From the IMG/VR virus record IMGVR_UViG_3300031420_000496, positions 5,472 through 69,471 of that record: a DNA stretch of 64,000 nt; one strand, written 5' to 3'. A model generated the notes under the pieces. That model did not search any database and had not been told where the DNA came from. It worked only from the letters and a program-made list of their open reading frames with translations. This document shows, one piece after another, positions 8,645 to 39,944 of the stretch (positions are counted from its first letter, which is position 1; each line of letters begins with the position of its first letter). Made by a program: the position numbers and the translations under genes. This DNA comes from a virus (Duplodnaviria; Heunggongvirae; Uroviricota; Caudoviricetes).

Positions 8645-8649
8645 ATTGT

Positions 8650-9114: not shown

Positions 9115-9122
9115 AAGAATTC

Positions 9123-9449: not shown

Positions 9450-9524
9450 TGGTGGAGGATAACGGGATCGAACCGTTGACCTGATGCTTGCAAAGCACCC
9501 GCTCTCCCAGCTGAGCTAATCCCC
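9450..9524 (-). tRNA. tRNA-Ala (UGC)
   Basis: close to E. coli tRNA-Ala (GGGG.U.UAGCUCAGCUGGGAGAGC), G3:U70, loop UUUGCAA. Confidence 0.8.
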
Positions 9525-9532
9525 CAAATTCG

Positions 9533-9781: not shown

Positions 9782-9791
9782 AATATAAACT

Positions 9792-9883
9792 TGGCGGAGG
9801 ATAAAGGAATCGAACCCTCACCGAGGGTTGGCCCCAGTGGGACGGATTTCAAGTCCGCGTCTGCACCTTGCAGCCTATCCTCC
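9792..9883 (-). tRNA. tRNA-Ser (UGA), class II
   Basis: acceptor GGAGGAU/AUCCUCC, loop CUUGAAA, long variable arm. Confidence 0.7.
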
Positions 9884-9980
9884 ATATCTGTCACAGCACT
9901 CCGACGACTAACTCGTATTTTTTCAACGTTCTTCATCGTGCTGTGTCTGGCCACGTATTGCTACGTAGCTTCGCGAATTC

Positions 9981-10054
9981 TGGTACCCACGAGTGGAATC
10001 GGACCACTGTATCTGCAATGTCAATGCAGCGCTCTGCCATTGAGCTACGCGGGC
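9981..10054 (-). tRNA. tRNA-Val (GAC)
   Basis: acceptor GCCCGCG/CGUGGGU, loop UUGACAU, CCA encoded. Confidence 0.8.
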
Positions 10055-10059
10055 AAATC

Positions 10060-10125
10060 TGGTGGAGCGTAGGGGACTCGAACCCCTCCTACCGCAGTGC
10101 AAGTGCAGCGCCTACCCCTGTAAAC
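10060..10125 (-). other. truncated tRNA-like element (T-arm and CCA present, 5' half too short)
   Basis: GGGGUUCGAGUCCCC T-arm and encoded CCA but only ~60 nt. Confidence 0.3.
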
Positions 10126-10241
10126 ACCCCATAATCAAAGCGCACTCAAGTGTGCTGCTTACACTAAACTCATTGAGTTCCCTTTGTCCACGCGATTCGG
10201 GTCGTCCTGATGGACGGGACTACAAGAGTACGCTTTGATTA

Positions 10242-10324
10242 TGGTGCACGCCACTGGAATCGAACCAGTTCAGCCAAAGGCCACTGCTTTACAGGCAGCT
10301 TATCTCTCCAAGGATAGGACGTAC
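10242..10324 (-). tRNA. tRNA-Tyr(GUA)-like
   Basis: acceptor GUACGUC/GGCGUGC with two G-U pairs, loop CUGUAAA, 13-nt variable arm. Confidence 0.6.
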
Positions 10325-10332
10325 AAAATGTG

Positions 10333-10557
10333 TTACCACTTCAAAATTCGACGAGCACAATTCAGAATTGCTTGTGCAAGATCGCTTTGATTTTTTACGC
10401 CAGCACATTGAAGCGCTGCCGCAATTTCAAACTTGGTCATGTCTGCGTGAAGCAGACGTTTTACTTGTTCAGCTTTGCCGTCGAAGTGATCCGAAAACTT
10501 TTCGATCGTAAGATCAATCGCTTGTGCGAATGCTGCTGTTACCCTGACGTCTGCCAT
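10333..10557 (-). CDS. hypothetical protein
   Basis: 74-aa ORF, no domain recognised. Confidence 0.4.
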   Translation of the reverse strand: MADVRVTAAFAQAIDLTIEKFSDHFDGKAEQVKRLLHADMTKFEIAAALQCAGVKNQSDLAQAILNCARRILKW

Positions 10558-10784
10558 AATATTCTCCAGTTGATGAGAGAATTATACATCACAACGAATT
10601 TAAAGCACACTGTTAAAAGCGTCGCAGCTTTATCTGTCCGTCTCACACCGGCCGATTTACTCGGCCATGTTTACCATTCCAGTGTACCAAATCAATATGC
10701 ACTGTGCGAGAAAGGAGTTGAACCTTTCATGCGCTAATGTATAGCTGTTCTTACCACTTGAACTATCGACAGTGCATATTGATT

Positions 10785-10860
10785 TGGTGGTTCCTGCAGG
10801 AGTCGAACCTGCGACCTAATGCTTGTAAGGCATCCGCTCTACCAGCTGAGCTAAGGAACC
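10785..10860 (-). tRNA. tRNA-Val (UAC)
   Basis: acceptor GGUUCCU/AGGAACC, loop CUUACAA, CCA encoded. Confidence 0.8.
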
Positions 10861-17771: not shown

Positions 17772-17847
17772 TCCTAAATTCTGGTGCCCCGTGCGGGGAT
17801 CGAACCCGCAACCCTCGGTTTTAGAGACCGCCACTCTGCCAGTTGAG
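17772..17847 (-). tRNA. amber suppressor tRNA (anticodon CUA), Trp-like body
   Basis: clean cloverleaf GCCUCGU..ACGGGGC-A-CCA; anticodon arm GCGGU-CUCUAAA-ACCGA matches E. coli tRNA-Trp CCGGU-CUCCAAA-ACCGG except C35->U. Confidence 0.7.
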
Positions 17848-17927
17848 CTAACGAGGCTTAATCTGTACTGCCTGTTTCGTTCAGTGGAATCATTATACCC
17901 GGTTCACACTGTCTTGCACAGCCTTTT

Positions 17928-24937: not shown

Positions 24938-26161
24938 TTAATCTTTAATCAAACCGAGCATCGTGCTCAGCATGATATGATGGTCTTCAAACCACCATTC
25001 AGGATTTGCCAGAGCAACAGAGATTGGCATGAAGAAAGCATCTTCAGTTTCCACTACACCATCAACACCAATATCTTCGATTGGGAAGTATTGGCCTTTC
25101 ACGATCGGCAACGGCTTCGTATCATCGAGACGGAAGAGGTGGCAAGTCGTGAACGTACGACCACGAAGACTGCGGTTCGGATCGTCGAAGTTCCGCGTAG
25201 CAACCAACGAGCCGCGCAGAATTGCTTCGGTGATCTTCCGCCAGTTCTTTCCGTCAGCCAGCTTTAGACCAGTTTCTTCGATCGCTTCTGCGATTGCGGC
25301 GAGCAGCAGCGTCTGATTACTTTTGACGAAGCCGCCAGGCAGAGCGATCAGACCTTTACCAGGCAGTGCACCGCGACGAACAACAAGCACGTGGCCGGAC
25401 TGGATAATGCAGGCGTCGGCCGTGACGTACGTGCGGTCGTATTGCTTCGCGAGCCACGAGTCGAAGATGTCGACGATCTTCTCGTGATAGCGGTGAGGCA
25501 CGAAGTCAAGGATCGCCTTGAGCAGTGGTGCGTGCGGATTCTTGTACTTGACGTTGAACTCGTACTCTTCACGAAGCGTTTCGAATTCCTTCGTGCCATG
25601 AAATTGGCGAAGGAAGTTCACGGTCGTCAGCGGCACATCAAGCCAGTTGGCTGCACCACCGAAGTTGTCGCTGAACAGACGATGACGAAGTTTCGATGCA
25701 GACAGCCCTTCGCCAGCATCGATTGCTGGTTTGAGGTCGCTGATGTATTGAGGAAATGAATTGAGATACCACGTTGTCGAATCACGATCGGCGCCAGTGA
25801 TGGCGACATCAACTTCGCTGGCTTTCCAGCCAACTTCTTTGATGGTCGCATCGACGGTTTCTTGAACCAACTGCAACCACTTTGGGGTATTGTATTGGTC
25901 AACCACCGGCTTGATGATAGGCCACTTGTCAGTCGTCAGATAGTTCTGAAGAACCCAAGCGTTAATCATGTCGAAACGTTCGCTGAACGTAAACGGATTC
26001 TTAATGTTGCGGGCGATGAATGCACTTCCGACGAGTACCAGGACTTTGTCCGAAGATTCAATTGCCTGTTCCAGTATATGGGCGTGACCATTATGGAACG
26101 GTTGGAAACGGCCAATGAAGACCGTCAGACGCTTACGCGTCTTGATTTCGCTGTGTGCCAT
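24938..26161 (-). CDS. bifunctional NMN adenylyltransferase / Nudix hydrolase (NadM-Nudix)
   Basis: N-terminal FIGRFQPFHNGH cytidylyltransferase motif; C-terminal Nudix box PGGFVKSNQTLLLAAIAEAIEETG. Confidence 0.85.
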   Translation of the reverse strand: MAHSEIKTRKRLTVFIGRFQPFHNGHAHILEQAIESSDKVLVLVGSAFIARNIKNPFTFSERFDMINAWVLQNYLTTDKWPIIKPVVDQYNTPKWLQLVQETVDATIKEVGWKASEVDVAITGADRDSTTWYLNSFPQYISDLKPAIDAGEGLSASKLRHRLFSDNFGGAANWLDVPLTTVNFLRQFHGTKEFETLREEYEFNVKYKNPHAPLLKAILDFVPHRYHEKIVDIFDSWLAKQYDRTYVTADACIIQSGHVLVVRRGALPGKGLIALPGGFVKSNQTLLLAAIAEAIEETGLKLADGKNWRKITEAILRGSLVATRNFDDPNRSLRGRTFTTCHLFRLDDTKPLPIVKGQYFPIEDIGVDGVVETEDAFFMPISVALANPEWWFEDHHIMLSTMLGLIKD

Positions 26162-28070: not shown

Positions 28071-28886
28071 CTATTTGCGACGCTTTTTCTTCTTGTGCTT
28101 CTGCGGCTTCGGTGAGGGTTCGCCAGTGATTGCGCGACGGATTGTCCACGCATCTTGCATGCGAGCTGAACTCGATCCAGCATTGAGCAAGACGATGGTT
28201 GCAGTTTTACCAGCAGCGACGATTCTCATGACAAAGCATCGACCTGATTCTTCGATGTAACCAGTCTTTGACAGACGAATGTCCCAGCCGTTTGCGCCAA
28301 CTAATCTGTTGGTGTTCTTGAAATTTGTACCGTGGATTTGAACCAATTCGGTCGTGGTGATGCGGGTGATGTCTGGATATGCTGATGCCGCTATTGCGAT
28401 GATGGCAAGATCACGTGCGGTGGATACATTGCTTGGCGAGAGTCCGGATGGTTCTACAATCGATGTTCCGCGAAGTCCCAATGCTGCGATTTTCGCTCGC
28501 ATTGCTTCTTGGAATGCTGGTAGTCCGCTTGGATACGTTCTGCCCAGTGCAGTTGCAGCTCTGTTGTCGGAGTGCATCAGCGCGAGTTCCAACGCCTCTG
28601 CTCGTGTCATCTGCCAACCAACACGAACACGTGACATGCTGTGCTTGATTTCATCGACATCAGACTGTTGAATCGTAATTATTTCCTGCATGTTCTGATG
28701 TGCGTCCAGCACTACCATTGCAGTCATGAGTTTTGTCAGTGACGCGATTGGGCTGACGAGGTCAGGTTGTTTTTCGAACAACACTTGACCACCGTCTTCA
28801 ATAACGAACACTGACTGTGAGTTGAACTTCGCGGCAGAACACGTCGCTGAAATCATCCACAACAGAGTAACAAACAGCTTCTTCAT
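28071..28886 (-). CDS. D-alanyl-D-alanine carboxypeptidase/endopeptidase (S11, PBP5/PBP7-like)
   Basis: signal peptide, SLTKLMT (SxxK), SDN and KTG motifs. Confidence 0.8.
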   Translation of the reverse strand: MKKLFVTLLWMISATCSAAKFNSQSVFVIEDGGQVLFEKQPDLVSPIASLTKLMTAMVVLDAHQNMQEIITIQQSDVDEIKHSMSRVRVGWQMTRAEALELALMHSDNRAATALGRTYPSGLPAFQEAMRAKIAALGLRGTSIVEPSGLSPSNVSTARDLAIIAIAASAYPDITRITTTELVQIHGTNFKNTNRLVGANGWDIRLSKTGYIEESGRCFVMRIVAAGKTATIVLLNAGSSSARMQDAWTIRRAITGEPSPKPQKHKKKKRRK

Positions 28887-28904: not shown

Positions 28905-29405
28905 TTACATGGCTTTGCGGAGTTGCTTGACTTCCGTGGTTTCGACGATCAGTTCGAAACCTTTGATGACGAGCGGTTCGCGGTCTTTGTAGTACGACTT
29001 GCGATTGTACACCGACTTCGCGTACTGCATCGTGCGATCCTTCATCAGATCGAACTGCTCGTCGGACGGCATCTCGTCGAAGTAGATCGCGACCGACTCG
29101 TAAGCCGGAAAACCCTTTTGATCTTCAGCCGCGTCGAAGTGCGTGCCCATGCCGTTGTTGAGACGACCGGGCGTCGGGTAGATTTTGCACGGCCTGTCGC
29201 AGCGCCCATCATCGGGCGCGACGCCGATGATGTCTGCGAACAGATCAGCTTGTTCATCGCCGACTTCGTCGAGGAAGTCGCTTGCCAGGTCTTCACCCAC
29301 ACCGCAATCACCGACTTGGCCGGTGATGTACGCGCACAGCTCACGCTCGAAATTGCCAGCGTACGCGTTGGTGTGGATGACGAAGATGATTCGTTCGTCG
29401 GACAT
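28905..29405 (-). CDS. hypothetical acidic protein
   Basis: 166-aa ORF. Confidence 0.45.
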   Translation of the reverse strand: MSDERIIFVIHTNAYAGNFERELCAYITGQVGDCGVGEDLASDFLDEVGDEQADLFADIIGVAPDDGRCDRPCKIYPTPGRLNNGMGTHFDAAEDQKGFPAYESVAIYFDEMPSDEQFDLMKDRTMQYAKSVYNRKSYYKDREPLVIKGFELIVETTEVKQLRKAM

Positions 29406-30514
29406 TATTTACGACCTTTCGCTTCACGTTTGATTGCGGCCAGTGCGGCCGGATGCACAGGCCAGTTCACCCGTTCGATGTCGAGCGGATCGACGTCACG
29501 CCATTTCGGATGACCATCAGCTTGCAGGTTGTCCACGTTTTTCGTGATGCAGCTGACGAGCGTACCGATTTCCTTCTGGTACTGGTTCTTGTACGCGAAC
29601 GTGGCCAGCACGTTGTTGACCTTGTACGTCGGCACAGCGTCGCCTTGGAAGCCGTACGTGTGCGATGCCAGCGACGTCTTCGTGTAGTACCCGTACTTGT
29701 CGAGCGTCGGATTGCTCAGCGGCACCAGCTTGATGCCTTTGGCGGTCGTCAGCACCGTGATCGGTTGACCGGCCACGATGAACTCGACGTCGGCGTCGCC
29801 ACGTTGCACTGCAGCGAGACCGTCTTTCTGCGACAGGTTGCCGGACACAGTGTTCCACTTGATGCCGGTCATCTGCTTGATGAGCTGCACGGTAACCCAC
29901 GTGCCGGAACCTTCCGGACCTTCCACTACGCGCTTGCCGGCCATGTCAGCCAGCGAGTTGATCGGTGCGCCGTTCTTGGCGATGGCGTGGACTTCGACCG
30001 AGAAGAACGGGAAGACTGCGACGACGCGCGACATCATCTTCGGATCGATCTTGCGTTGGTAGTCCAGCGCATCTTCTTGAATGATGCCGAACTGCGAGTT
30101 CTTGTCGGTGTAAATCTTGTTGATGTTGTCGACGGAACCGTTGGTGATGACGTTGCGCAGCGGGTAATCCGGCGTCGAGCAGACCTTGATGATGTCTTCG
30201 ACCATCGGATAGTTGGTGCCGGTCTTCTGGCCGGACGCGATGCCGGCGCCAGGAAGTTTCTGGCCGTTTGCGACTTCGAGCGAGGATTCGGATGGTACCG
30301 CGTTCACGCTTGCGGGTTCACGCGTCGGCAGTTCTTCACGCGGTGCGACGGGATCGCCACGTTGAACTTCCGGTGCTGCCGCGACTTCGGCGTCTTTCGT
30401 TTCGGCCACTTCGGTCTTGTCATGCTTCGGCATGAACTTGTACGCGCCGAAACCGGCGGCGCCGACGATTGCTGCGACGATCAGTGCTTTTGGGAGAGCT
30501 TTGAGCTTTGCCAT
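29405..30514 (-). CDS. membrane-anchored periplasmic solute-binding protein (TAXI/NMT1-like)
   Basis: N-terminal TM anchor; NVITNGSVDNINKI..FGIIQED pattern like TAXI/NitT-TauT SBPs. Confidence 0.6.
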   Translation of the reverse strand: MAKLKALPKALIVAAIVGAAGFGAYKFMPKHDKTEVAETKDAEVAAAPEVQRGDPVAPREELPTREPASVNAVPSESSLEVANGQKLPGAGIASGQKTGTNYPMVEDIIKVCSTPDYPLRNVITNGSVDNINKIYTDKNSQFGIIQEDALDYQRKIDPKMMSRVVAVFPFFSVEVHAIAKNGAPINSLADMAGKRVVEGPEGSGTWVTVQLIKQMTGIKWNTVSGNLSQKDGLAAVQRGDADVEFIVAGQPITVLTTAKGIKLVPLSNPTLDKYGYYTKTSLASHTYGFQGDAVPTYKVNNVLATFAYKNQYQKEIGTLVSCITKNVDNLQADGHPKWRDVDPLDIERVNWPVHPAALAAIKREAKGRK

Positions 30515-30771: not shown

Positions 30772-31569
30772 TTACAGAGTATGAAACAAATCGTGCAGCT
30801 CGTTCAGCAGTGGCACGAACATTGGATGCTTCGTCACGTTGGGCTGCCACGCAAGGCCCATGGCTTTCAGATCGTATATCTTGACGATCGTCGCGCCGGG
30901 TTTTCCTTCTTCACGACCCATCACCCAGATCGTGTCGGCGATTTGAATCGCGGATTCTAGATCGTGTGTAGTGAAGATGGTCGTGTTCAGTTCATCAACG
31001 AGATTCACTTCGTTGATCAGATCGCACACCTTGTCTTTTGCGATGATGTCGAGACCGGAGAACGGTTCGTCCATCAACAAGAAGTGACGGTCGGAAATCA
31101 GCATCTGTTGAATGATGGCAACGCGTTGACGTTGACCACCAGACAACTGCACTGGATACTTGTCGCCATGATCTTGCAGGCCGAAACGAGTCAGCATCTC
31201 GACAACCCTCTTCTTGTCTTTGCAGACGAGCGTTAGGTTGCCCATGATGGTGCGGTGTTGCAACAGCGGATATGCTTGCTGCACAACACCAACACTTCCG
31301 GGCTCCGGCGCTTTGCCGATTTTTCCTTCTTCGATTTCGCCAAACTCGATCGTGCCGAGCGTCGGTCGTTGCAGACCGGCGATGCATCGGAACAGCTGCG
31401 TCTTGCCACAGCCGGACGGTCCGAGCAGCGCGACGCACTGGCCTTGATTCAGCCCCGGTCGTACCACGTTGTCGATCACGAGGTTGATGTCGCGCAAGAT
31501 GACTTTGTTACCGTACGACAAGCCAAGACCAGTGATGGTCAGCATGCGTTCTTCGAGTTTGTATTCCAT
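30772..31569 (-). CDS. ABC transporter ATP-binding protein (NitT/TauT-type)
   Basis: Walker A GPSGCGKT, signature LSGGQRQR, Walker B LLMDEP. Confidence 0.9.
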   Translation of the reverse strand: MEYKLEERMLTITGLGLSYGNKVILRDINLVIDNVVRPGLNQGQCVALLGPSGCGKTQLFRCIAGLQRPTLGTIEFGEIEEGKIGKAPEPGSVGVVQQAYPLLQHRTIMGNLTLVCKDKKRVVEMLTRFGLQDHGDKYPVQLSGGQRQRVAIIQQMLISDRHFLLMDEPFSGLDIIAKDKVCDLINEVNLVDELNTTIFTTHDLESAIQIADTIWVMGREEGKPGATIVKIYDLKAMGLAWQPNVTKHPMFVPLLNELHDLFHTL

Positions 31570-31570: not shown

Positions 31571-32425
31571 TTACTTTCCAGTTACCAGCACGTTGGTGCC
31601 CATGCCCGGAGTCACGATGCAGCGTTCCGACTTGGCACAGGCTTCGGAGTAACGCTTGATGGCTTCGAGTTGGATGAACTGCTCGCTGTTCATGCCCAGC
31701 GCGTTACGGTACGCGTTGTCAGCTGCGGCCTTTGCGGTCTGCTCTTTCGCACGTTGTTCTTCTGCAGCGGTCGCGGCGATCAACGTCTTGTTACGTTGCT
31801 GTTGAGCAGCGGTCTCGTTCATCTGCAGCAAGACGTTGTCGTTCGGCTTCGCACGACCCAGCGTAACGCCGAGAATCGCGATTGGCAACTTGCTTTCCGC
31901 CACGAGCTTTTGCAGCGCATCGGTAACGTAGGTGTCAACACGTGTCGACGTTTCAGCATTGGACATCATGTCCGTCATGGTTTCCTTCTTGACAGCCTCG
32001 CGCACGATCGACATGTATTGGCGTTGCAAGTTGTTGACGAACCAATCCTTCGATCCGAACTTGCTCACCAGCACTTTCGCGTCGGTAATCTTGAACTGGA
32101 TCGTGGATTCGAAGTCCAGCAAGATGTTGTCTGCCGACGACAGGTCGTCGAACTTGACGTTGTATGATTGCGGTGTCATTCGTACCGGCTCGACGTCCGA
32201 CGTTCGGAACAGCAGAATACGACCTTGCTTCAGGGTTTCATCGCGTACACCGCTGGAGCCGAAGAAGTACGGCTTGTCGATGATGACCAGCTCGTGGCCG
32301 GGTTCCACGGTCTCGGTTCGCATGGCCAACAGCCACACGAGGAAGAACGTGGCGATGGCGATGATGACGAGACCTGCAATACCATACAGCAGGACGTTGG
32401 GGCTTTTAGCGGTATTCGAACTCAT
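31571..32425 (-). CDS. SPFH/band-7 (HflK/C-like) membrane protein
   Basis: N-terminal TM, SPFH-like core, Ala/Glu/Gln-rich coiled coil. Confidence 0.65.
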   Translation of the reverse strand: MSSNTAKSPNVLLYGIAGLVIIAIATFFLVWLLAMRTETVEPGHELVIIDKPYFFGSSGVRDETLKQGRILLFRTSDVEPVRMTPQSYNVKFDDLSSADNILLDFESTIQFKITDAKVLVSKFGSKDWFVNNLQRQYMSIVREAVKKETMTDMMSNAETSTRVDTYVTDALQKLVAESKLPIAILGVTLGRAKPNDNVLLQMNETAAQQQRNKTLIAATAAEEQRAKEQTAKAAADNAYRNALGMNSEQFIQLEAIKRYSEACAKSERCIVTPGMGTNVLVTGK

Positions 32426-32792: not shown

Positions 32793-33194
32793 TCACAGTT
32801 TGTCGGAATGTTCGCGAATTACTTTCGCGATCTTTGGGAAGTCGAATTCGTAATGGTCATTCAGATCGATCAGATCGCGAATGTATTCTGTCATCTCGTC
32901 TTGACTGTGGCTCTTCTTGTCGCGGACTTTGAGTCTCACGCCATCACCGATTTTTCCATTATCGGATCGCATGCCGGCCCAGTGCATCACTTGTTCCGGC
33001 AGCTCGCCTTCTTTGCCCATGTATTTCTCTGGGTCAGTTTCGTCCTTTGCAATTTCTGGATGTGCTTGAGCATGCAGATTGCAGAGGACACCAAGACAAC
33101 AGAACTTGTTGCCTTCACGCAGTGCGCCGGTTGTTTGGCCATACTCGCCGCTTTCAAGGGCACGTGCCCACTTCAGTGCAATTTTGCGATCCAT
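32793..33194 (-). CDS. hypothetical protein
   Basis: 133-aa ORF. Confidence 0.45.
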   Translation of the reverse strand: MDRKIALKWARALESGEYGQTTGALREGNKFCCLGVLCNLHAQAHPEIAKDETDPEKYMGKEGELPEQVMHWAGMRSDNGKIGDGVRLKVRDKKSHSQDEMTEYIRDLIDLNDHYEFDFPKIAKVIREHSDKL

Positions 33195-33982
33195 TATCGA
33201 TCACTCCGGTTTAGATTGGTGTAAGGGCAGACGGTGGCGCGCAGCAGATCAAGCAACATATCTTGAATGATACCATACGCGAGAATCGTCAGTTGAATCG
33301 CGAACACGGCCGGCAGGTTGAAGTACTTTGCTTGCACCGCCAGCAGAGCACCGATACCACCATCGCTGCGGACGTACGATTCAACCATCACGATCAGCGT
33401 CCAGCCGATTGCCGCATTTTGGCGGAGCAGGTCCAGCATCACATGCAGTCGACCCAACACACCGATTTCATATGTGATGTGCCATCCGTTCATGCCCAGC
33501 GATCGAGCGTAGTCGATGGACTCCAATGGAATCGCTTTGATTTCGTCCACGGTCGACCGCATCAAGAACACAGTCATGCCGAACGTCAACATGGCCAGTT
33601 TCAGGTGCGAACCATTTCCGCCAACCCACAGTGTGAAGAGGAACGTCAGACCGGCGAAGCCGAGGAATCGGAGCGACGCGATGAACGTTGCTCCAGGTTT
33701 AAAGAAGTCCGCAGTTGTGAGGTAGGCAGCGCCGAAGGAAATTAACGCTGACAGGATGAGCGCTTCCCAGATCACGGCTACGGACTTAAAGAGTTCCAGC
33801 AGAAGACCTTGCTTCAGTGCAAGGTCGTTCCACGCGGAGGCGATTGCCGATGGCGACGGAATACCACTGCTTGCCGGCAACAGAACCCATACAACCGCGA
33901 GAACCACGAGTTGAAAGGCTGCAAGAAACTTGATGCTGAACTTGCGCCCAGCATAAAAAGGTGTAAACAGTGAGTTGAACAT
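33194..33982 (-). CDS. ABC transporter permease (SsuC/TauC-like)
   Basis: 6 predicted TM helices, EAA-like loop IDYARSLGMNGWHITYEIGVLGRL. Confidence 0.8.
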   Translation of the reverse strand: MFNSLFTPFYAGRKFSIKFLAAFQLVVLAVVWVLLPASSGIPSPSAIASAWNDLALKQGLLLELFKSVAVIWEALILSALISFGAAYLTTADFFKPGATFIASLRFLGFAGLTFLFTLWVGGNGSHLKLAMLTFGMTVFLMRSTVDEIKAIPLESIDYARSLGMNGWHITYEIGVLGRLHVMLDLLRQNAAIGWTLIVMVESYVRSDGGIGALLAVQAKYFNLPAVFAIQLTILAYGIIQDMLLDLLRATVCPYTNLNRSDR

Positions 33983-33984: not shown

Positions 33985-34203
33985 TTACTTTCGAGTTGCC
34001 CGGTAGATGGCAAATGAGTAGAAGAACGCGAGATGCAGCATGCCCAACGTCGCGAACACGTACGGCCAGAAGATAATCTTGGCGTCGAACGTGAACATCG
34101 CCATTGCGAACGGGAAGAATGCACCGAACACAAAGTAGATGAACGTGAAGAAGCGGTATGGCTCGTGCAGGCTGTCGTACCAGTCGGAAAGTTTATGCAG
34201 CAT
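33985..34203 (-). CDS. small membrane protein
   Basis: ORF from MMLHKLSDWY with two hydrophobic helices. Confidence 0.4.
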   Translation of the reverse strand: MLHKLSDWYDSLHEPYRFFTFIYFVFGAFFPFAMAMFTFDAKIIFWPYVFATLGMLHLAFFYSFAIYRATRK

Positions 34204-34414
34204 CATGTTTCTCCCTCTGCTCGCACAGTTCACGATGCAGAACCGACAAGCTGTTGTAGTGCAAGTCCGGAATGTCGTAACCAGTGTCATTACTGATTTC
34301 GTTCAAGTCGGAGAAGAAATTATTTAGCGATGCAATGATTCTGGTACGAGCTTCTTGGTCCAGCTTGTCTTGCTTGGTCTTACGTTTGGTTTTGGTCATG
34401 GCGACACCACACAT
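34193..34414 (-). CDS. hypothetical protein
   Basis: 73-aa ORF. Confidence 0.35.
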   Translation of the reverse strand: MCGVAMTKTKRKTKQDKLDQEARTRIIASLNNFFSDLNEISNDTGYDIPDLHYNSLSVLHRELCEQREKHDAA

Positions 34415-34638
34415 GTCTGAGGTTTACCATCTTCGGTCACTTGAACGATGATGGTTTTCGAATACGTGAGGTAAGCGACGCCCTTGATGCAGTGTTGGTA
34501 AACATTATAGTTACCCGGTTCTACGCTTACGATCTTCACGTTGGCAGCATTGGTCGGCTGCGGTTCCGGCCTTTCCTTACGCATGCAGGCCGAAAGACTT
34601 GCAGCGATCAAAGCTAATACTATCAGACTTGCTTTCAT
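34396..34638 (-). CDS. lipoprotein
   Basis: lipobox LSAC after signal peptide. Confidence 0.5.
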   Translation of the reverse strand: MKASLIVLALIAASLSACMRKERPEPQPTNAANVKIVSVEPGNYNVYQHCIKGVAYLTYSKTIIVQVTEDGKPQTCVVSP

Positions 34639-34771
34639 TCTTCGTCCTTTTTCTCGGGTTCTGGATATTGTCGAACCGTCACGTCGATGCCGGCTTTTGT
34701 GAGTGCTTCATAGAGCTCTTCAACAGTCAGATTCTCTATGATTTTCTTCGCATGCTCGTAGAACGCTTGGT

Positions 34772-34963
34772 TCATTTGTAGTCAGCCGTCGGAGATTGTA
34801 GCGACCAGAACAGTGCAGTGAACCAGCCGACGATGGTCCAACCGAGTACCATGTTCATCATGACGATGCGATGGCCGTTGTTGTGGAGTCGAAGCAGAGC
34901 GATCATCGACGGAACGTTGTAGATGACGATGCCGAGAACGATGTAGCCGAGAATGATAAGCAT
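34772..34963 (-). CDS. superinfection immunity (Imm-like) membrane protein
   Basis: MIALLRLHNNGHRIVMMNMVLGWTIVGWFTALFWSL resembles the T4 Imm family core. Confidence 0.6.
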   Translation of the reverse strand: MLIILGYIVLGIVIYNVPSMIALLRLHNNGHRIVMMNMVLGWTIVGWFTALFWSLQSPTADYK

Positions 34964-35019
34964 GTTGAGTCCTGAAAGAAAATTAGGGAAACCCGGAGGT
35001 CTCCCTATTGTACATCAGC

Positions 35020-36672
35020 TTACTTCGTGGAGTACAACACAATTTCCACGCGGCGGTTCTGAGCATCCGAACCGATCGGCTGCGTGTCGCCGAAGCCGCG
35101 GGTCGAGATACGCTCGGCCGGGAAGTTGCTCGGCGCATTCGCGCGGAGGAAGTTCGCCACTGCTTCAGCACGCTTCTTCGACAGGGCCAGGTTTGCTTCC
35201 GGATTACCCTTGCTGTCGGTGTGACCGTTGATTTGCACCGACAGGCCCGAGACAGCGATCTGGTCCAGCAGCTCGTTCAGCACAGCGATCGATGCCGGCT
35301 TGAAGGTCGTCTTGCCGGTGTCGAACTCGATGCTGTACGACTTGTTACCGACGACCTCGGACTTCTGGCCACCGTACGTCGGCGTAGCAGCCGATTCGAC
35401 GCTCACGTTCGAGTTCTGCAGCAGGCCCTCGAGATACGAGGTGTTCACAACTTGATCGTACGGAATCAGCTTCGGCAGGTTGTCCGGGAAGTACTTGACC
35501 GCGATGTTGCCGTACACGTTGTACACTTTCTTGTACAGGTTGTCGGCGCCTTTCAGGCCGAACAAGAACGCATTGTCTGCGAGTCCGTTCGTGGTCGAGC
35601 CGCCGAGCGATACGCCGTTTTCAGTCGTGCCCTTGAAGTACTTGGCCCAGTAGTTCGCATCGCCTTCGCCATACACCTTGGCTTCGACCGCGCCGGCTTT
35701 CAGCAGTGCTTGATCGCTGCTGCGAACTGCTTCACCGCCTTCGAATGCTGCCGCCAGGAAAGCCTTCACCTCGTTCGGGTGTGCAGCCATCCACTTCTTA
35801 TTGCCGATCACGACGGCCGGCATCTGCCATGCGTATTCTTTCGTCGACGCCAGCACCTTGATGTTGCCGCGCTTCGTTGCAACTTTGACATCGCCCGGGG
35901 TCCAGGTTGCGGTACCGTTGATCGGATGGCCGCGGTCGCTTGCGCCAGCGATGAACTTCTCGTCGCCGTCGGTGAAGGACGAAACGCCCACGAAGTTCAT
36001 CGCTTCCGGATCGTAGGTCTTCGGATCGGAGTTGACCTTGATGCCGTTGTCGGCCGCATACTTGATGCAGATGTTGATGTCGCCATCGCCGAGCACGCCA
36101 GCAATCAGCGAACCCTGCGGACGTGCATTCTTGTCGATGATGCACTTGTCTTCGCCGCGGCTGTAGCCCAGTGCGCCCACCACTTCGACGGATTGGTCGA
36201 ACGGCTTCAGTGCGTCGTTGGCGCCCTTGACGAATGCCGGATAGCCGTCGCCCATGATGACGACGAAGTGCACGCCGGTCGAGTTGTCTTTGGCGAACGA
36301 TGCCAGATCGGCGATCATCTTGCTGTAGTCGTCTTCGCGACGGATGTTGACCTTCAGGCCACGCTTCGCCATCAGCGAATCGGAGGTCGTGTCGGCGTCG
36401 CCGTTGGCGTAGTGCATGCCGGCCGTCGCGTTCCATGCGAGGGTCTTGACGCGGATGGTTTCGTGCGAGTTCACTGCTGCAGTGGTGATGGTGCCGGTCG
36501 ACGCGGTCTGGTTTGCAGCTGCAGTTGGGAGGTCGATCTTGTCCGGCACGGATGCTTCGATCGTAGCGCGCGACTTGAAGTAGCCTTTATTCATCGCGGT
36601 GTGAACGCCGAAGCCGACACCAGCGAGAACGACTGCGACCAGAATTGCTTTTGGCAAAGGTTTGAGTTTCAT
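35020..36672 (-). CDS. membrane-anchored SBP-like protein fused to C-terminal OmpA/MotB-type peptidoglycan-binding domain
   Basis: N-terminus MKLKPLPKAILVAVVLAGVGFG paralogous to anchor of 29405-30514; C-terminus NGHTDSKGNPEANLALSKKRAEAV..RRVEIVLY is OmpA_C-like. Confidence 0.65.
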   Translation of the reverse strand: MKLKPLPKAILVAVVLAGVGFGVHTAMNKGYFKSRATIEASVPDKIDLPTAAANQTASTGTITTAAVNSHETIRVKTLAWNATAGMHYANGDADTTSDSLMAKRGLKVNIRREDDYSKMIADLASFAKDNSTGVHFVVIMGDGYPAFVKGANDALKPFDQSVEVVGALGYSRGEDKCIIDKNARPQGSLIAGVLGDGDINICIKYAADNGIKVNSDPKTYDPEAMNFVGVSSFTDGDEKFIAGASDRGHPINGTATWTPGDVKVATKRGNIKVLASTKEYAWQMPAVVIGNKKWMAAHPNEVKAFLAAAFEGGEAVRSSDQALLKAGAVEAKVYGEGDANYWAKYFKGTTENGVSLGGSTTNGLADNAFLFGLKGADNLYKKVYNVYGNIAVKYFPDNLPKLIPYDQVVNTSYLEGLLQNSNVSVESAATPTYGGQKSEVVGNKSYSIEFDTGKTTFKPASIAVLNELLDQIAVSGLSVQINGHTDSKGNPEANLALSKKRAEAVANFLRANAPSNFPAERISTRGFGDTQPIGSDAQNRRVEIVLYSTK

Positions 36673-36783
36673 TTAATTTCCTTCAAAGTTAATAAACTAA
36701 GCCCTGTCAGACTTTAGGTTTTCGGTTACTAAAAAGAGCCGATGAGTGCATTATACACCCATCGACGAATTTCGTGTTGATTT

Positions 36784-37542
36784 TTATTGCTTGATTGTAT
36801 TGCGGTTGAAAGCGAACGTTTTTGTTTTACCGCCGACAGTGACTTCAAACCGCATTTCATCATTGGCGGTCACATTGTCATCACAGCAGTTTTTTACCAT
36901 CAGTTGCGCGTCGACATTGGCTTGTGGCAATACAGTGTTTTGTTGCAGCAATGCTTGTGCGCGAACTTCGTCGTTTGCTGCGTACCGTTCAATTTGATTG
37001 ATGCTTACACCAGTTGCTGCGCCAACAGTACCAGCAGCCAGCATACCAGCGGCAGGATTGTACGTATTGATTTGGCCGCCGCCGATCCAACCATTACGAC
37101 CGTAGGCGTTGTACGTTGTTGTTTGGTGCGATGCCGAGTGCGCAGCAGATGCCGCTGCTACACCGCCGACAACGGCCATCAGAATTTGGGCTTTCATTTT
37201 ATTGCTACGGATTTCAGCAGTACGTTCTTCGAACGTGTAGAGGCCAACTTGTGCACCTCGCCAGAATACTTTCACGTTGGCGTTTGAAAAATCGACCGGC
37301 TTGTCAGTCTTATTCATGTAGTAAATGCTGAACGTTGGAATGGCACCTGAATTCAACAGTCGAAACGTTGGATAAATCACGATGTCGCCTTCTGGTTCTG
37401 ATGATGCCAGTGTTCCGACACCTTGCTTGAATACCAGCGTTGTATTTCCATCTGCTGGTTTTGATGCAGTGTATGTGTGAAGATTAGCGCAGCCACTGCA
37501 GACAATTGCAAGGCTAACAGCTGTAATAAGACGAGTTTTCAT
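36784..37542 (-). CDS. lipoprotein with Gly/Ala-rich segment
   Basis: lipobox IVCSGC; AVVGGVAAASAAHSASH. Confidence 0.5.
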   Translation of the reverse strand: MKTRLITAVSLAIVCSGCANLHTYTASKPADGNTTLVFKQGVGTLASSEPEGDIVIYPTFRLLNSGAIPTFSIYYMNKTDKPVDFSNANVKVFWRGAQVGLYTFEERTAEIRSNKMKAQILMAVVGGVAAASAAHSASHQTTTYNAYGRNGWIGGGQINTYNPAAGMLAAGTVGAATGVSINQIERYAANDEVRAQALLQQNTVLPQANVDAQLMVKNCCDDNVTANDEMRFEVTVGGKTKTFAFNRNTIKQ

Positions 37543-37610
37543 TTTATTTCCATTTTCAAGTTAGACAGCATGAGACACCAATGATGAACAGTTCATCATT
37601 GGTACAGAAA

Positions 37611-38642
37611 TTATTGATCTTTTTTGTTCAATAGTTGGCTGTAGTCGAACTGCTGAGCAGCCGGTTGGCCGATGCCGTTGTACAGAGTCGAGTCGTACGT
37701 GCTCTGTTCCAGCATCTGCTGTTTGTGGTTGCCGAGCAGGATCGAGTCAGCTTTGTTTTCCCACTCTTGCAGCTTCTTCAGTGCATCGGCTTCGTACACG
37801 CCGTTTTGCAGGTCCAGGCCTTCGACGAAACCTTTCGAGTTCTCGATGAAGTTCTCGATTTCGCCCATCTTCATGCCGTAGTCGTTGACGACATATTCCA
37901 TCGCTTGGTCGAACAGCTCGCGTTGATCGGTGCCGCCCATCAGAATCTTCTTCGCAGTCGACATGGCCGAGTACGATTCTTGAATCATCTTGCGCTGCAT
38001 CTCTTGCGCCTTCACTTCGTTGTGCAGGTCGTCGATGACGGTGCCAGTCACTTCGTAGTATTTCATCAGCGCTTTGAGGTGGACTTCCATCTGCAACAGC
38101 AGCGGCTTCAGCGATTCCTTGTTCAACTTCTCGAGTCGGCCGGCTTGACGCGATGCGACGGTTGCAGCAGAGCCCAGACCTTTTTCATGCGCGACCTTGA
38201 ACGTGGACATCTGCTTTTCGTACTCGATGTCGTTCTGCTCGACTTGTTTCTTGCAGACCTGTACTTGTCCTCGCAGCTTCGCGATGGATTCTTCCATGAT
38301 GCCGCGTTTGGACTTCAGATCGTCGATGTACGACTTCATGATGCCGATCGGATCGATTTCGACGAAGGCGCCGGTGATCTTTCGCATCACGCTCTTGAAC
38401 CCGTACGCGATCAGCGTTTGGAACTTGCTGTTCGTCAGGATCATGATGAGCCCGAAGAGGATCGCGCCGAGCACCGTGATCGCGATGCCTTGGCCCAGCA
38501 GGTTGATGATCTTGCCGAACAGCCGCGTGAGGAAGTCCAGCGAGAAGTATGCTGCCACCACTCCGAGCCCGATGGCAAACATACCGGTCGTACCTTCCGG
38601 ACGTTCCCAGAAGGATTTTGGTTTGAATTCGTTAGTCGACAT
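37611..38642 (-). CDS. membrane protein with long coiled-coil region
   Basis: two N-terminal TM helices then heptad-rich region. Confidence 0.5.
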   Translation of the reverse strand: MSTNEFKPKSFWERPEGTTGMFAIGLGVVAAYFSLDFLTRLFGKIINLLGQGIAITVLGAILFGLIMILTNSKFQTLIAYGFKSVMRKITGAFVEIDPIGIMKSYIDDLKSKRGIMEESIAKLRGQVQVCKKQVEQNDIEYEKQMSTFKVAHEKGLGSAATVASRQAGRLEKLNKESLKPLLLQMEVHLKALMKYYEVTGTVIDDLHNEVKAQEMQRKMIQESYSAMSTAKKILMGGTDQRELFDQAMEYVVNDYGMKMGEIENFIENSKGFVEGLDLQNGVYEADALKKLQEWENKADSILLGNHKQQMLEQSTYDSTLYNGIGQPAAQQFDYSQLLNKKDQ

Positions 38643-38654
38643 GGCTTTTCCTTT

Positions 38655-39350
38655 TTAGCCGAGGGTGGAGAGAATGGTTGCTTTGTGGCCGTTCAGTTCG
38701 TTGCGGACGTGTGCTGCGGCAGCTTTGAATTCTACCTCAGCTTGACGCAGTTCTGCTTCTTTCGACGCGGCTTGCGCATTGAAATTGTGCAGTGCGGTCG
38801 TCTGCTCGATCGTCTGTTGCTGCAGCGTCGCGATGCGTTGCTGCAGACTTTGGATTTCGTTGTTGGCGGCGTTCACTGCAGCTTCAGCTTGACCAGCTTG
38901 TGCTTTCAGTCCGCCGACTTCCGACTTGATCTTGCCTTCCAGTGCTTGGCCGAAAGACATCTCTGCAGCGTCGACGTCGGCCAAGTGAATCGTCACTGCG
39001 TCAGCGAATTCCTTAGCTGCACGACCTGCGCCGGCAGTTTTCTGTGCCGCCTTCAGTCGCATCGTCGGATCGGGAATCACGTCGGCGAGTTGATCTGCCG
39101 CGTTCATCAGAGCCGTGAGCGCAGTGTTGCGGCCCATCGTTTGCTTGCGAATTGCCGCCACCATTTCTTGGTTGACGGCGGTCGGCGCCGAGAACGACAT
39201 GCCACTGCCGACGGTCGTTGCCGGTCGTGGAGTTTGCGCCGGGGCTTGCTGCTGTTGCGGCGCCCCTTGCGGGGCTTCTGCTGCAGGTTGCGAACCGTCG
39301 CTTTCGAACAGCGAGTTCTTCAGTCCGCTGAGGAGATTACCGAATGCCAT
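38655..39350 (-). CDS. hypothetical coiled-coil protein (Gln/Ala-rich N-terminus)
   Basis: 231-aa ORF. Confidence 0.5.
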   Translation of the reverse strand: MAFGNLLSGLKNSLFESDGSQPAAEAPQGAPQQQQAPAQTPRPATTVGSGMSFSAPTAVNQEMVAAIRKQTMGRNTALTALMNAADQLADVIPDPTMRLKAAQKTAGAGRAAKEFADAVTIHLADVDAAEMSFGQALEGKIKSEVGGLKAQAGQAEAAVNAANNEIQSLQQRIATLQQQTIEQTTALHNFNAQAASKEAELRQAEVEFKAAAAHVRNELNGHKATILSTLG

Positions 39351-39365
39351 GATGTTGTCCTTTGA

Positions 39366-39944
39366 TTAACGGCCGAAGTCCGGCGCTGCTTGTTTCTTGG
39401 TGCGGAACGCTTCGCTCGCGCCTTCGCTCGAGATGATGACGTACTTGTTCAGGTCGATCTTCGGATAACCGGCGACACCGAGCCAGAAGCCTTGCCACGG
39501 CGAACCGAGCGCGGTCTCGTACGAACGCTTGATGTCGAGCATCTGCGTCTGCGAAACCTGGAATTCTTTCTGCGTCGATTCGACGACTTGCTGCACCTTG
39601 CGATACAGCTGCGGGTCCTGCACCGGGTTTTGCTCGGTGATCGATTGGAACACGGCCTTCGAGCCGTCGGCACCGTAGCGGCCGGTCACTGCTGCCTTGA
39701 ACAGATCAATCTGATCTTGCGTGGCCATCTTGGTCACGCCGGCGACGCCTTTCAGTTGCTGATAGCCGGACGACAGGACGTTCTCGTTGTCGCTATACTT
39801 CGCCTTCAGCTGCTGCTCGGTGCGGTTACCGTACGATGCCGCGCTGAAGTAGCTTGCACCGACTCCGAGCAGTACCGCGCCGAAGACACCAGCGACGACC
39901 AGACCAGTTACCAGACCCGAACCTTGTTGACGTTTCAGTTTCAT
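39366..39944 (-). CDS. membrane-anchored protein (possibly LemA-like)
   Basis: N-terminal TM, ~190 aa; weak LemA resemblance. Confidence 0.4.
   Translation of the reverse strand: MKLKRQQGSGLVTGLVVAGVFGAVLLGVGASYFSAASYGNRTEQQLKAKYSDNENVLSSGYQQLKGVAGVTKMATQDQIDLFKAAVTGRYGADGSKAVFQSITEQNPVQDPQLYRKVQQVVESTQKEFQVSQTQMLDIKRSYETALGSPWQGFWLGVAGYPKIDLNKYVIISSEGASEAFRTKKQAAPDFGR

What the first reader, a model, noticed from the sequence alone, without database searches (positions are those of the whole stretch)
35020..36672. Paralogous SBP-like domain fused to an OmpA/MotB-type peptidoglycan-binding domain, sharing the membrane anchor of the ABC-system SBP
The N-terminus (MKLKPLPKAILVAVVLAGVGFG) is nearly the same as that of the 29405-30514 SBP (MAKLKALPKALIVAAIVGAAGFG). 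The C-terminal 90 aa is a clear OmpA_C/MotB-like PG-binding domain (NGHTDSKGNPEANLALSKKRAEAV…RRVEIVLY). An inner-membrane-anchored, PG-tethered ligand-binding protein is an unusual architecture. It may be a periplasmic sensor, scaffold or exclusion factor.
Basis: partly seen in the sequence, partly recalled or inferred. Interest (0 to 1): 0.6.

Follow-up and report, generated by a model that had tools for sequence, protein, structure and literature searches.

The report
Cell-wall-tethered ABC binding protein in phage
A huge phage carries a complete bacterial nutrient-uptake (ABC) transporter whose ligand-catching subunit is anchored in the inner membrane at one end and has a cell-wall-binding domain at the other; this design is widespread in bacteria, but I found no study of it.

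Summary
ORF 35020-36672 (-) encodes a 550-aa protein with four parts: an N-terminal transmembrane anchor, a disordered linker, a two-lobed TauA/SsuA-type substrate-binding fold, and a C-terminal OmpA-like peptidoglycan-binding domain. Its N-terminus resembles that of the neighbouring TAXI binding protein far beyond chance.

The interpretation needs correcting on three points.
- The two binding proteins are not detectable paralogs (hhalign probability 0.15%). They share only the anchor.
- The architecture is not a phage oddity. About 350-490 clusters (50% identity) and at least 561 bacterial genome loci encode the same three-part protein. It is almost always followed directly by homologs of this window's permease and ABC ATPase.
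- The target is therefore most likely the ancestral, cognate binding subunit of that TauT/NitT-like importer. The TAXI protein is a phage-specific addition. In this phage subclade its cleavable signal peptide was replaced by a copy-like anchor plus linker.

The ligand is unknown. Sensor, scaffold and exclusion roles are not favoured. No curated family, solved structure or paper was found for this family. I rate it a new variant of a known kind, of moderate interest.

The parts
35020..36672 (-). Whole gene: 550-aa TM-anchored SBP-like/OmpA fusion protein
   Evidence: ORF. More than 120 full-length homologs. Domain map from the AF2 model.
36586..36672 (-). Residues 1-29: positively charged N-terminus (MKLKPLPK) plus a hydrophobic helix. 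Probably an uncleaved signal-anchor.
   Evidence: Helix 5-28 in the model. K4 and Y31 are invariant, and the position that would be -1 of a cleavage site is not consistently small. The LKP[LI]P[KR] motif is also present in bacterial homologs. Absence of cleavage is inferred, not shown.
36490..36585 (-). Residues 30-61: disordered tether between the membrane anchor and the binding domain
   Evidence: pLDDT 28-41. Length and sequence vary among homologs.
35398..36489 (-). Residues 62-425: two-lobed class II periplasmic-binding-protein fold (TauA/SsuA/NrtA class)
   Evidence: pLDDT 80-97. Foldseek: TauA 6ssy E 1.4e-12, TM 0.76-0.78. Weak Pfam NMT1 hits in 14 of 30 homologs. Invariant residues lie at strand ends and helix N-termini.
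35341..35397 (-). Residues 426-444: second flexible linker
   Evidence: pLDDT below 50 for residues 427-442.
35029..35340 (-). Residues 445-548: OmpA-like peptidoglycan-binding domain with the canonical D486/R501 pair
   Evidence: Pfam PF00691 E 4.6e-17. PDB profile hits to TssL, YiaD, YfiB, AbOmpA, MotB and Pal. Invariant GHTD...LS..RA motif.
33194..33982 (-). ABC permease, TauC/NtrB/SaoP-like, with an EAA-loop-like DYARSLG-x9-I motif. Inferred partner of the target.
   Evidence: NCBIfam weak full-length hits. A homolog lies directly downstream of the fusion gene in 67 of 79 bacterial loci. The motif was read from the sequence.
30772..31569 (-). ABC ATPase with intact Walker A, signature, Walker B and H-loop. 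Short TauB/SsuB/NrtD-like form.
   Evidence: Pfam ABC_tran E 4.1e-26. NCBIfam. Contiguous with the permease in 64 of 79 bacterial loci.
29405..30514 (-). TAXI-family (NMT1_3) binding protein, a phage-specific addition. Residues 1-88 (30251-30514) are a grafted anchor plus Pro/Ala linker resembling the target's N-terminus.
   Evidence: TIGR02122 94.4 bits against 84.35. Absent from the bacterial loci. Sister phages L004 and L005 have a 19-aa cleavable signal peptide at this position.
37611..38642 (-). 343-aa protein with two TM helices and a long helical hairpin (PspA/Vipp1/ESCRT-III-like, tentative). Conserved upstream of the fusion gene in the phages and in Proteobacteria.
   Evidence: Synteny. 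AF2 hairpin pLDDT about 90. Foldseek: Vipp1 7o3w E 7.7e-4, PspA 4whe TM 0.81.
38655..39350 (-). 231-aa coiled-coil protein, conserved further upstream in the phages and some Burkholderiales
   Evidence: tblastn 24-53% identity in L001-L027. Only coiled-coil-type weak hits.
34984..35007 (-). Terminator-like hairpin immediately after the target's stop codon
   Evidence: 10-bp stem followed by a T-run. The number of such sites in the region is not above chance; only the position is suggestive.
36738..36766 (-). Terminator-like hairpin between the upstream lipoprotein gene and the target
   Evidence: 13-bp stem. Same caveat as the hairpin at 34984-35007.

Best explanation
The gene encodes the substrate-binding subunit of a TauT/NitT-type ABC importer. 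The permease (33194-33982) and the ATPase (30772-31569) lie in the same minus-strand gene block.

The protein inserts N-in through an uncleaved signal-anchor. A disordered tether of about 35-40 residues lets the TauA/SsuA-like binding domain reach into the periplasm. A second short linker ends in an OmpA-like domain that holds the meso-DAP stem peptide of peptidoglycan non-covalently. The binding domain is therefore held between inner membrane and sacculus, next to its transporter. It captures a small, still unknown ligand in the inter-lobe cleft and delivers it to the permease, and ATP hydrolysis drives import.

The whole module is a bacterial invention taken up by huge phages. It consists of the fusion, permease and ATPase, plus two upstream genes that are shared only with Proteobacteria. 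This phage lineage added a TAXI binding protein. In the window's subclade, that protein's signal peptide was replaced by the same kind of anchor and tether, presumably to place it at the same transporter or site.

Shown: domain composition, fold class, synteny, family distribution and the anchor replacement.

Inferred: absence of signal-peptide cleavage, actual PG binding, direction of transport, docking to this permease, and any property of the ligand.
For: - Domains: OmpA domain, TauA/SsuA-class fold, TM helix and linkers.
- Synteny: of 79 loci from bacterial genome assemblies, 76 have the OmpA domain fused, 74 carry a permease homolog (36-50% identity) and 73 an ATPase homolog (42-53%). In 67 the permease lies within 500 nt downstream, and in 64 all three genes are contiguous. 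No other SBP-like gene is present in those operons.
- Same triplet in phages: related huge-phage contigs L001-L006 and an unrelated 462-kb phage, LR756500.1.
- Matching subunits: the permease homologs hit TauC, NtrB and SaoP over their full length. The ATPase is the short TauB/SsuB/NtrCD-like type. These are the partners expected for a TauA/SsuA-type SBP.
- Conserved cleft: the invariant residues are W80 N81, R112 D114 Y116, IMGDG 139-143, GYSRGEDKC 169-177, DGD 196-198, ATWTPGD 255-261, STxxYxWQM 276-284 and LGGS 356-359. All sit at beta-strand C-termini or helix N-termini, where class II binding proteins hold ligands.
- Periplasmic location: invariant C177 and C202 are consistent with a periplasmic disulfide.
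- Fixed architecture: nearly all full-length representatives are 575-640 aa, with the binding domain starting at residue 65-100.
Against: - No ligand, transport or PG-binding experiment exists for any family member, and no paper was found.
- Sequence-level membership in NMT1/SsuA is not reached.
- In this phage, four small genes (one of them Imm_superinfect) and terminator-like hairpins separate the target from the permease. An SPFH gene separates the permease from the ATPase. Co-expression is therefore not guaranteed.
- Why an importer's binding protein should be pinned to peptidoglycan is unexplained.
- The conserved PspA/Vipp1-like neighbour in Proteobacteria and the phages hints at an envelope-maintenance role rather than nutrition.
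- The fold is also used by enzymes (Thi5, DszB).
Confidence: 0.62

Rival explanations
1. Envelope-coupling or envelope-maintenance device. The fusion protein is mainly a physical bridge between inner membrane and peptidoglycan, or a monitor of that gap. Its SBP-like domain binds a cell-wall-derived ligand or the permease itself. The ABC ATPase powers or regulates this coupling together with the PspA/Vipp1-like membrane protein, rather than importing a nutrient. The phage would use it to keep the host envelope and proton-motive force intact during a long infection.
For: - The protein is tethered at both ends.
- A PspA/Vipp1-like protein with two TM helices and a coiled-coil protein are conserved immediately upstream in the phages and in 28 proteobacterial loci.
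- The phage block also contains an SPFH/HflK-like protein, a secreted S11 DD-carboxypeptidase and lipoproteins.
- No catabolic or biosynthetic genes are linked in the bacterial loci examined.
Against: - The permease is of the type I importer kind (TauC/NtrB-like, with an EAA-like loop), not a MacB/FtsX-type mechanotransmitter.
- The PspA-like gene is missing from most non-proteobacterial loci, which still keep the three-gene core.
- The cleft-lining residues are conserved in the pattern typical of small-molecule binding.
- The PspA-like assignment rests on a model with mean pLDDT 65 and a helical hairpin.
Confidence: 0.17
2. Periplasmic sensor. The SBP-like domain senses a ligand and signals, through its TM anchor or a partner kinase, rather than feeding a transporter. 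This was one of the first reader's suggestions.
For: - SBP folds are often used as sensor domains.
- In Albitalea terrae a KdpD-like histidine kinase ORF overlaps or follows the operon.
- The N-terminal anchor and juxtamembrane residues (K4, Y31) are unusually conserved.
Against: - The cytoplasmic part is only about 4-8 residues, so there is no output domain.
- A kinase neighbour was seen in one locus only. Other loci have unrelated housekeeping neighbours such as ParB, DapB, LepB and RtcB.
- Linkage to the permease and ATPase is near universal.
Confidence: 0.07
3. Superinfection-exclusion or anti-phage factor. A PG-tethered periplasmic protein would block DNA entry or wall penetration by competing phages. 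This was another of the first reader's suggestions.
For: - The protein is periplasmic and associated with the wall.
- It lies next to an Imm_superinfect gene.
- The OmpA domain weakly resembles ZorB of the Zorya defence system.
Against: - The same protein sits in chromosomal ABC operons of many bacterial phyla, next to housekeeping genes.
- The ZorB hits cover only the generic OmpA domain, and no defence model matches the rest of the module.
- The Imm gene is an insertion specific to this phage. It is absent from the L001 and L005 arrangement.
Confidence: 0.04

Closest known systems
TauA / SsuA (substrate-binding proteins of the taurine and alkanesulfonate ABC importers, TauT/NitT group; PDB 6ssy, 2x26, 3ksx)
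   Same: - Best structural matches.
- Paired with a TauC-like permease and a short TauB/SsuB-like ATPase.
- Gene order of SBP, permease, ATPase in one operon.
   Different: - No significant sequence-profile match, and Pfam NMT1 is below threshold.
- Identity in the structural alignments is about 15%.
- TauA and SsuA are soluble, with cleaved signal peptides and no PG-binding domain (established knowledge).
- The ligand here is unknown.
NrtA / CmpA of cyanobacteria (membrane-tethered nitrate and bicarbonate binding proteins; PDB 2g29, 2i4b)
   Same: - Same fold class.
- SBPs kept at the cytoplasmic membrane of a diderm rather than diffusing freely (established knowledge: they are lipoproteins).
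   Different: - The tether there is a lipid anchor, not a TM helix.
- They have no OmpA domain.
- Foldseek alignments are poorer (rmsd 11-13).
MotB / PomB / TssL / YiaD type proteins (N-terminal inner-membrane anchor plus C-terminal OmpA-like PG-binding domain)
   Same: - Same overall topology: a TM helix, a periplasmic linker and an OmpA-like domain with the D/R DAP-binding pair.
   Different: - A 360-residue binding-protein fold is inserted between anchor and OmpA domain.
- The TM helix has no acidic residue of the MotB type (sequence).
- The partner is an ABC permease/ATPase pair, not MotA, ExbB or TssM.
RefSeq label 'phosphate ABC transporter substrate-binding/OmpA family protein'
   Same: This is the name NCBI gives the Emticicia agri homolog (WP_130023331.1). 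The SBP-plus-OmpA architecture has therefore been noticed by automated annotation.
   Different: - No member scanned hits a PstS-type Pfam model.
- The fold matches are TauA, SsuA and NrtA, not PstS. 'Phosphate' is therefore unsupported.
- Other homologs are simply called 'OmpA family protein' or 'Outer membrane protein'.
Phage-encoded PstS of cyanophages (auxiliary metabolic SBP)
   Same: A phage-carried substrate-binding protein, presumed to boost uptake in the infected cell (established knowledge).
   Different: - Cyanophages carry only the SBP, which plugs into the host PstCAB.
- Here the phage carries the SBP, permease and ATPase, plus a second SBP of another family.

Membership tests
OmpA family (Pfam PF00691, OmpA_C-like PG-binding domain) | Profile match above the gathering threshold | tested here: met
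   62.6 bits against a cut-off of 27.2, residues 450-540. All 30 homologs scanned also match.
OmpA family (Pfam PF00691, OmpA_C-like PG-binding domain) | Conserved Asp and Arg that contact meso-DAP (D271/R286 in A. baumannii OmpA, recalled from the literature) | tested here: met
   D486 and R501, 15 residues apart within GHTD...LSKKRA, are invariant in 30 homologs. Actual PG binding was not tested.
NMT1/SsuA/TauA-type substrate-binding proteins (Pfam PF09084 / TIGR01728) | Profile match above the curated threshold | tested here: not met
   NMT1 scores 14.9 bits against 20.5 for the window protein. 14 of 30 homologs hit weakly, best E 1.2e-6. The mid-domain profile finds no PDB sequence and only 486 proteins among 1.84 billion representatives.
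NMT1/SsuA/TauA-type substrate-binding proteins (Pfam PF09084 / TIGR01728) | Two-lobed class II PBP fold closest to TauA/SsuA | tested here: met
   Foldseek: 6ssy E 1.4e-12, TM 0.76-0.78, followed by SsuA, NrtA, CmpA, ThiY and Thi5. The model has pLDDT 80-97 over this region.
SBP-dependent type I ABC importer (TauT/NitT group) | SBP gene linked to a cognate permease and ATPase | tested here: met
   67 of 79 bacterial loci have the permease within 500 nt downstream, and 64 of 79 have all three genes contiguous. The same holds in the phage loci. The permease hits TauC, NtrB and SaoP.
SBP-dependent type I ABC importer (TauT/NitT group) | Ligand binding and ligand-dependent transport | not testable with these tools
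   Needs biochemistry.
TAXI-TRAP binding proteins (TIGR02122 / PF16868), i.e. a paralog of the neighbour encoded at 29405-30514 | Detectable homology of the binding domain to the TAXI family | tested here: not met
   There is no Pfam or NCBIfam TAXI hit for the target. BLASTP similarity is confined to residues 2-29. hhalign of the two family alignments gives probability 0.15%.
MotB/PomB stator-type proteins | Conserved acidic residue in the TM helix and a MotA-like partner | tested here: not met
   The TM segment AILVAVVLAGVGFGV has no Asp or Glu. The neighbours are an ABC permease and ATPase, and no MotA or ExbB family hit was found among the neighbours scanned.
Known anti-phage defence systems (PADLOC-DB) | Match of the module's proteins to a defence-system model set | tested here: not met
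   There are only generic OmpA-domain hits to ZorB and generic ABC ATPase hits. The permease, TAXI protein, 343-aa protein and SPFH protein match nothing.

The most novel reading that the evidence does not exclude
The conserved module consists of a PspA/Vipp1-like membrane protein, the TM-anchored SBP-OmpA protein, the permease and the ATPase. It may be a previously unrecognised envelope machine. In it, an ABC motor and a binding-protein-like domain would couple the inner membrane to the sacculus, or take up a wall-derived ligand directly at the peptidoglycan. Huge phages would deploy it to stabilise or re-provision the host envelope. The conserved N-terminal LKPLPK anchor would act as a specific docking element, which the phage also grafted onto a second binding protein.
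Probability: 0.15. Interest if true: 0.8.

Novelty: new variant of a known kind. Interest (0 to 1): 0.55.

Why it matters
Binding proteins of ABC importers in diderm bacteria are textbook free-diffusing periplasmic proteins. This family is fixed at both ends, with a membrane anchor and a peptidoglycan-binding domain. It occurs across Proteobacteria, Acidobacteriota, Myxococcota, Bacteroidota and Armatimonadota. In databases it is labelled only 'OmpA family protein'.

If the explanation holds, it defines a new mode of organising an importer and raises a clear, testable question: what ligand needs to be caught at the wall?

For phage biology it is a rare case of a virus carrying a complete importer rather than just a binding protein. 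The signal-peptide-to-anchor replacement on the second binding protein is a tidy natural experiment on why tethering matters.

Tried and rejected
- Megablast of 34000-38000 against GenBank phages: no match.
- tblastn of the target against phages: one full-length relative (LR756500.1, 31% identity); the rest were OmpA-domain-only hits.
- Profile of the whole family against PDB sequences: only OmpA-domain hits. Profile of the middle domain alone: nothing significant.
- phmmer of the permease and the 343-aa protein against PDB: nothing useful.
- AlphaFold-DB Foldseek library: not available. BFVD viral structures: no full-length match.
- PADLOC: no defence system.
- NCBIfam: no specific model for the fusion protein, the 343-aa protein or the 231-aa protein.
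- Five literature searches found no study of an SBP-OmpA fusion or of this phage module.
- Neighbouring genes in bacterial loci were checked for substrate clues. Only unrelated housekeeping genes were found.
- Rejected: the plus-strand 569-aa ORF 35008-36717 is a shadow ORF.
- Rejected: the 'phosphate' label in the RefSeq name has no PstS-type support.
- Rejected: the MotB-type stator reading, because the TM helix has no acidic residue and there is no MotA partner.
- Ligand guesses from the invariant acidic, basic and aromatic residues (a zwitterionic or amine-bearing small molecule, possibly wall-derived) are speculation. I do not rely on them.
Full report
**What is at the coordinates**

ORF 35020-36672 on the minus strand (ATG start, 550 aa) is a real gene. 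The database of 5.8 billion proteins holds an identical protein on contigs of about 375 kb, and more than 120 full-length homologs at 50-84% identity. Many of these lie on contigs of 300-380 kb. The longer plus-strand ORF 35008-36717 is an antisense shadow.

The window looks like part of a huge phage:
- 28 tRNA genes;
- a PhiW-14/Vi1-type virion protein at 39366-39944;
- a gp44-like clamp loader.

**Checking the observation**

The C-terminal OmpA domain is clear. Pfam PF00691 matches residues 450-540 at 62.6 bits, against a cut-off of 27.2. The GHTD...LSxxRA motif is invariant in 30 homologs, including D486 and R501. These correspond to the Asp/Arg pair known to contact meso-DAP in OmpA-like domains (established knowledge, recalled).

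The region before it has no Pfam hit above threshold. An AlphaFold2 model built on 30 homologs gives the following layout:
- a TM helix, residues 5-28;
- a disordered stretch, residues 30-58;
- a confident two-lobed alpha/beta domain, residues about 60-420, pLDDT 80-97;
- a short linker;
- the OmpA domain.

Foldseek against the PDB puts E. coli TauA first (6ssy, E 1.4e-12, TM 0.76-0.78 on the target). SsuA, NrtA/CmpA, ThiY and Thi5 follow. The middle domain therefore has an SBP fold.

The N-terminal resemblance to the protein encoded at 29405-30514 is also real. It is 14/28 identical. The local score is 74, against 28 for the next best of 350 window ORFs. None of 20,000 shuffles that keep the n-, h- and c-region compositions reached that score.

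**The two binding proteins are not paralogs**

The neighbour is a TAXI-family protein (TIGR02122 94.4 bits against 84.35; Pfam NMT1_3). Outside the first 29 residues BLASTP finds nothing between the two. A profile-profile comparison of the two families gives a probability of 0.15%. They share only the generic fold class and the anchor.

**The decisive evidence is comparative**

I scanned one genome per bacterial species with the two most conserved motifs of the middle domain, GYSRGEDK and ATWTPGDV. This gave at least 561 confirmed loci at 40-53% identity over the full domain. They include:
- isolates of Massilia, Undibacterium, Collimonas, Albitalea, Scleromatobacter, Serratia microhaemolytica and Emticicia agri;
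- the complete Minicystis rosea chromosome;
- many MAGs of Acidobacteriota, Armatimonadota, Myxococcota and Bacteroidota.

tblastn of the window's proteins against the 79 loci from bacterial genome assemblies among those kept (L007-L085; L006 is also MAG-labelled but carries the phage-type TAXI gene) gave these counts:

| Feature | Loci (of 79) |
|---|---|
| OmpA domain fused directly after the middle domain | 76 |
| Permease homolog present (36-50% identity) | 74 |
| ATPase homolog present (42-53% identity) | 73 |
| Permease within 500 nt downstream of the fusion gene | 67 |
| All three genes contiguous | 64 |
| TAXI gene nearby | 0 |

Further points:
- Pfam confirms the C-terminal OmpA domain in the Albitalea (631 aa) and Minicystis (595 aa) proteins.
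- An exhaustive HMMER search of 1.84 billion representatives finds 486 clusters at E<=1e-3 and 353 at E<=1e-10. Nearly all full-length members are 575-640 aa, with the binding domain starting at residue 65-100. The three-part architecture is therefore fixed, with no unfused close relatives.
- The profile does not reach canonical SsuA/TauA sequences, so this is a separate sequence family.
- The bacterial permeases hit TauC, NtrB and SaoP over their full length at weak E-values.
- The phage permease carries an EAA-loop-like DYARSLG-x9-I motif, and the ATPase has all catalytic motifs (sequence).
- The only SBP-like protein in these operons is the fusion. The simplest reading is that it is the cognate binding subunit.

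**In the phages**

Related huge-phage contigs keep this gene order: a 217-231-aa coiled-coil protein, a 339-343-aa protein, the fusion, the permease, the ATPase and a TAXI SBP. In L004 the permease is split into 116 aa and 132 aa.

A distant 462-kb phage (LR756500.1) has just the fusion, permease and ATPase, contiguous.

The two upstream genes are also found upstream of the operon in 28 loci, mostly Burkholderiales and Gammaproteobacteria (38-42% identity for the 343-aa protein). The fusion protein's nearest cellular relatives are in the same groups (about 52% identity). The module was therefore probably acquired from that part of the bacterial tree (inference).

The 343-aa protein models as two TM helices plus a long helical hairpin. 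Its best PDB matches are Vipp1 and PspA (7o3w E 7.7e-4; the 4whe hairpin at TM 0.81, rmsd 1.4). I treat this as tentative.

**The anchor**

Bacterial homologs in Proteobacteria begin M(A)LKP[LI]P[KR]xxLI...G.YG. The Serratia protein, for example, begins MKLKPLPKFILIAS. More distant phyla also have an N-terminal TM segment followed by a linker. The anchor is therefore ancestral to the fusion family.

Within the family, K4 and Y31 are invariant, and the residue that would be at -1 of a cleavage site is not consistently small (A, L or T). I therefore infer an uncleaved signal-anchor. This is not shown.

The TAXI protein tells the complementary story:
- In L004 and L005 it has an ordinary 19-residue signal peptide ending AHA, directly before the mature GIASG.
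- In the window and in L001 that peptide is replaced by 88 residues: M(A/P)KLK(A/V)LPKALIVAA..GFGAYKFMPK plus a Pro/Ala-rich linker.
- At the DNA level, the 34 nt encoding LKxLPKAxxVA are about 76% identical between the two genes.

The phage thus converted a soluble SBP into a tethered one using the same kind of anchor as the fusion protein. This argues that the anchor does something specific, such as co-localisation or docking (inference).

**Mechanism proposed, and its limits**

The protein inserts N-in, consistent with the positive-inside rule. The binding domain hangs on a tether of about 35-40 residues, and the OmpA domain holds the sacculus. Ligand capture in the cleft and delivery to the TauC-like permease drive ATP-dependent import.

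Two observations support real ligand binding and a periplasmic location:
- The invariant residues cluster at strand ends and helix N-termini, which is where class II binding proteins hold ligands.
- C177 and C202 are invariant, consistent with a periplasmic disulfide.

What the ligand is, and why the SBP must be pinned to the wall, remain open. No neighbouring enzyme genes give a clue.

The association with a PspA-like protein keeps an envelope-maintenance reading alive, and I give it 0.17. In this phage the module is also associated with an SPFH protein, an S11 DD-carboxypeptidase and lipoproteins.

Sensor and exclusion-factor readings are weak:
- The cytoplasmic part is only a few residues long.
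- The gene sits in chromosomal operons next to housekeeping genes.
- PADLOC finds only generic domain hits.
- The superinfection-immunity domain belongs to the separate 63-aa gene at 34772-34963.

**Novelty**

I found no curated Pfam or NCBIfam family, no solved structure and no paper. RefSeq calls members 'OmpA family protein' or, once, 'phosphate ABC transporter substrate-binding/OmpA family protein'. The 'phosphate' part has no support here. BFVD has no viral protein with this architecture.

The thing is a known kind, an SBP-dependent ABC importer, in a new variant. The binding subunit is bitopic and cell-wall-tethered, the family is widespread in bacteria, and huge phages have captured it.

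Noticed in passing
window 214-10860 (-) and 17782-17857 (-): A cluster of 27 tRNA genes, plus a separate tRNA with a CTA anticodon (amber-suppressor-like, called 'Pyl' by ARAGORN). One further call in the cluster has an odd 2-base anticodon.
   Followed up: no
window 34772-34963 (-): A 63-aa membrane protein with a superinfection-immunity domain (PF14373, E 2.2e-14). It is inserted directly downstream of the target, between it and the permease, and is absent from the related loci L001 and L005.
   Followed up: partly
window 37611-38642 (-) and 38655-39350 (-): A 343-aa protein with two TM helices and a PspA/Vipp1/ESCRT-III-like helical hairpin, plus a 231-aa coiled-coil protein. Both are conserved upstream of the ABC module in the phages and in Burkholderiales and Gammaproteobacteria. 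Databases annotate them only as hypothetical.
   Followed up: partly
window 31571-32425 (-): An SPFH/Band 7 (HflK-like) membrane protein is inserted between the permease and the ATPase in this phage. It was not found in the bacterial loci or in the other phage loci.
   Followed up: partly
window 28071-28886 (-): A phage-encoded S11 D-alanyl-D-alanine carboxypeptidase (PBP5/6-like) with a signal peptide (PF00768, E 9.8e-48). This is a peptidoglycan-trimming enzyme close to the wall-tethered binding protein.
   Followed up: no
window 1970-2701 (-): A 243-aa protein with a signal peptide and an OmpA-like outer-membrane beta-barrel domain (PF13505 and PF01389). It has no C-terminal PG-binding domain, so this is a phage-encoded outer-membrane protein.
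   Followed up: no
L004 4002-4773: In the most distant related phage contig the permease gene is split into two ORFs of 116 aa and 132 aa. This could be a frameshift, a pseudogene or an assembly error.
   Followed up: no
window 35008-36717 (+) and 37635-39365 (+): Long antisense shadow ORFs (569 aa and 576 aa) lie opposite real minus-strand genes. A longest-ORF gene caller would pick the wrong strand here.
   Followed up: yes
L029, L032, L035 (CPR/Patescibacteria MAG contigs): The fusion, permease and ATPase triplet also appears on contigs binned to Candidatus Lloydbacteria, Paceibacterota and Ryanbacteria. That is unexpected for a peptidoglycan/outer-membrane-context protein. These could be mis-binned phage or other bacterial contigs.
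   Followed up: no
window 299-1573 (-) and 24938-26161 (-): Phage-encoded UDP-glucose/GDP-mannose dehydrogenase, and a fusion of an NMN-adenylyltransferase-like (CTP_transf_like) domain with a NUDIX domain. These are further metabolic genes in the window.
   Followed up: no
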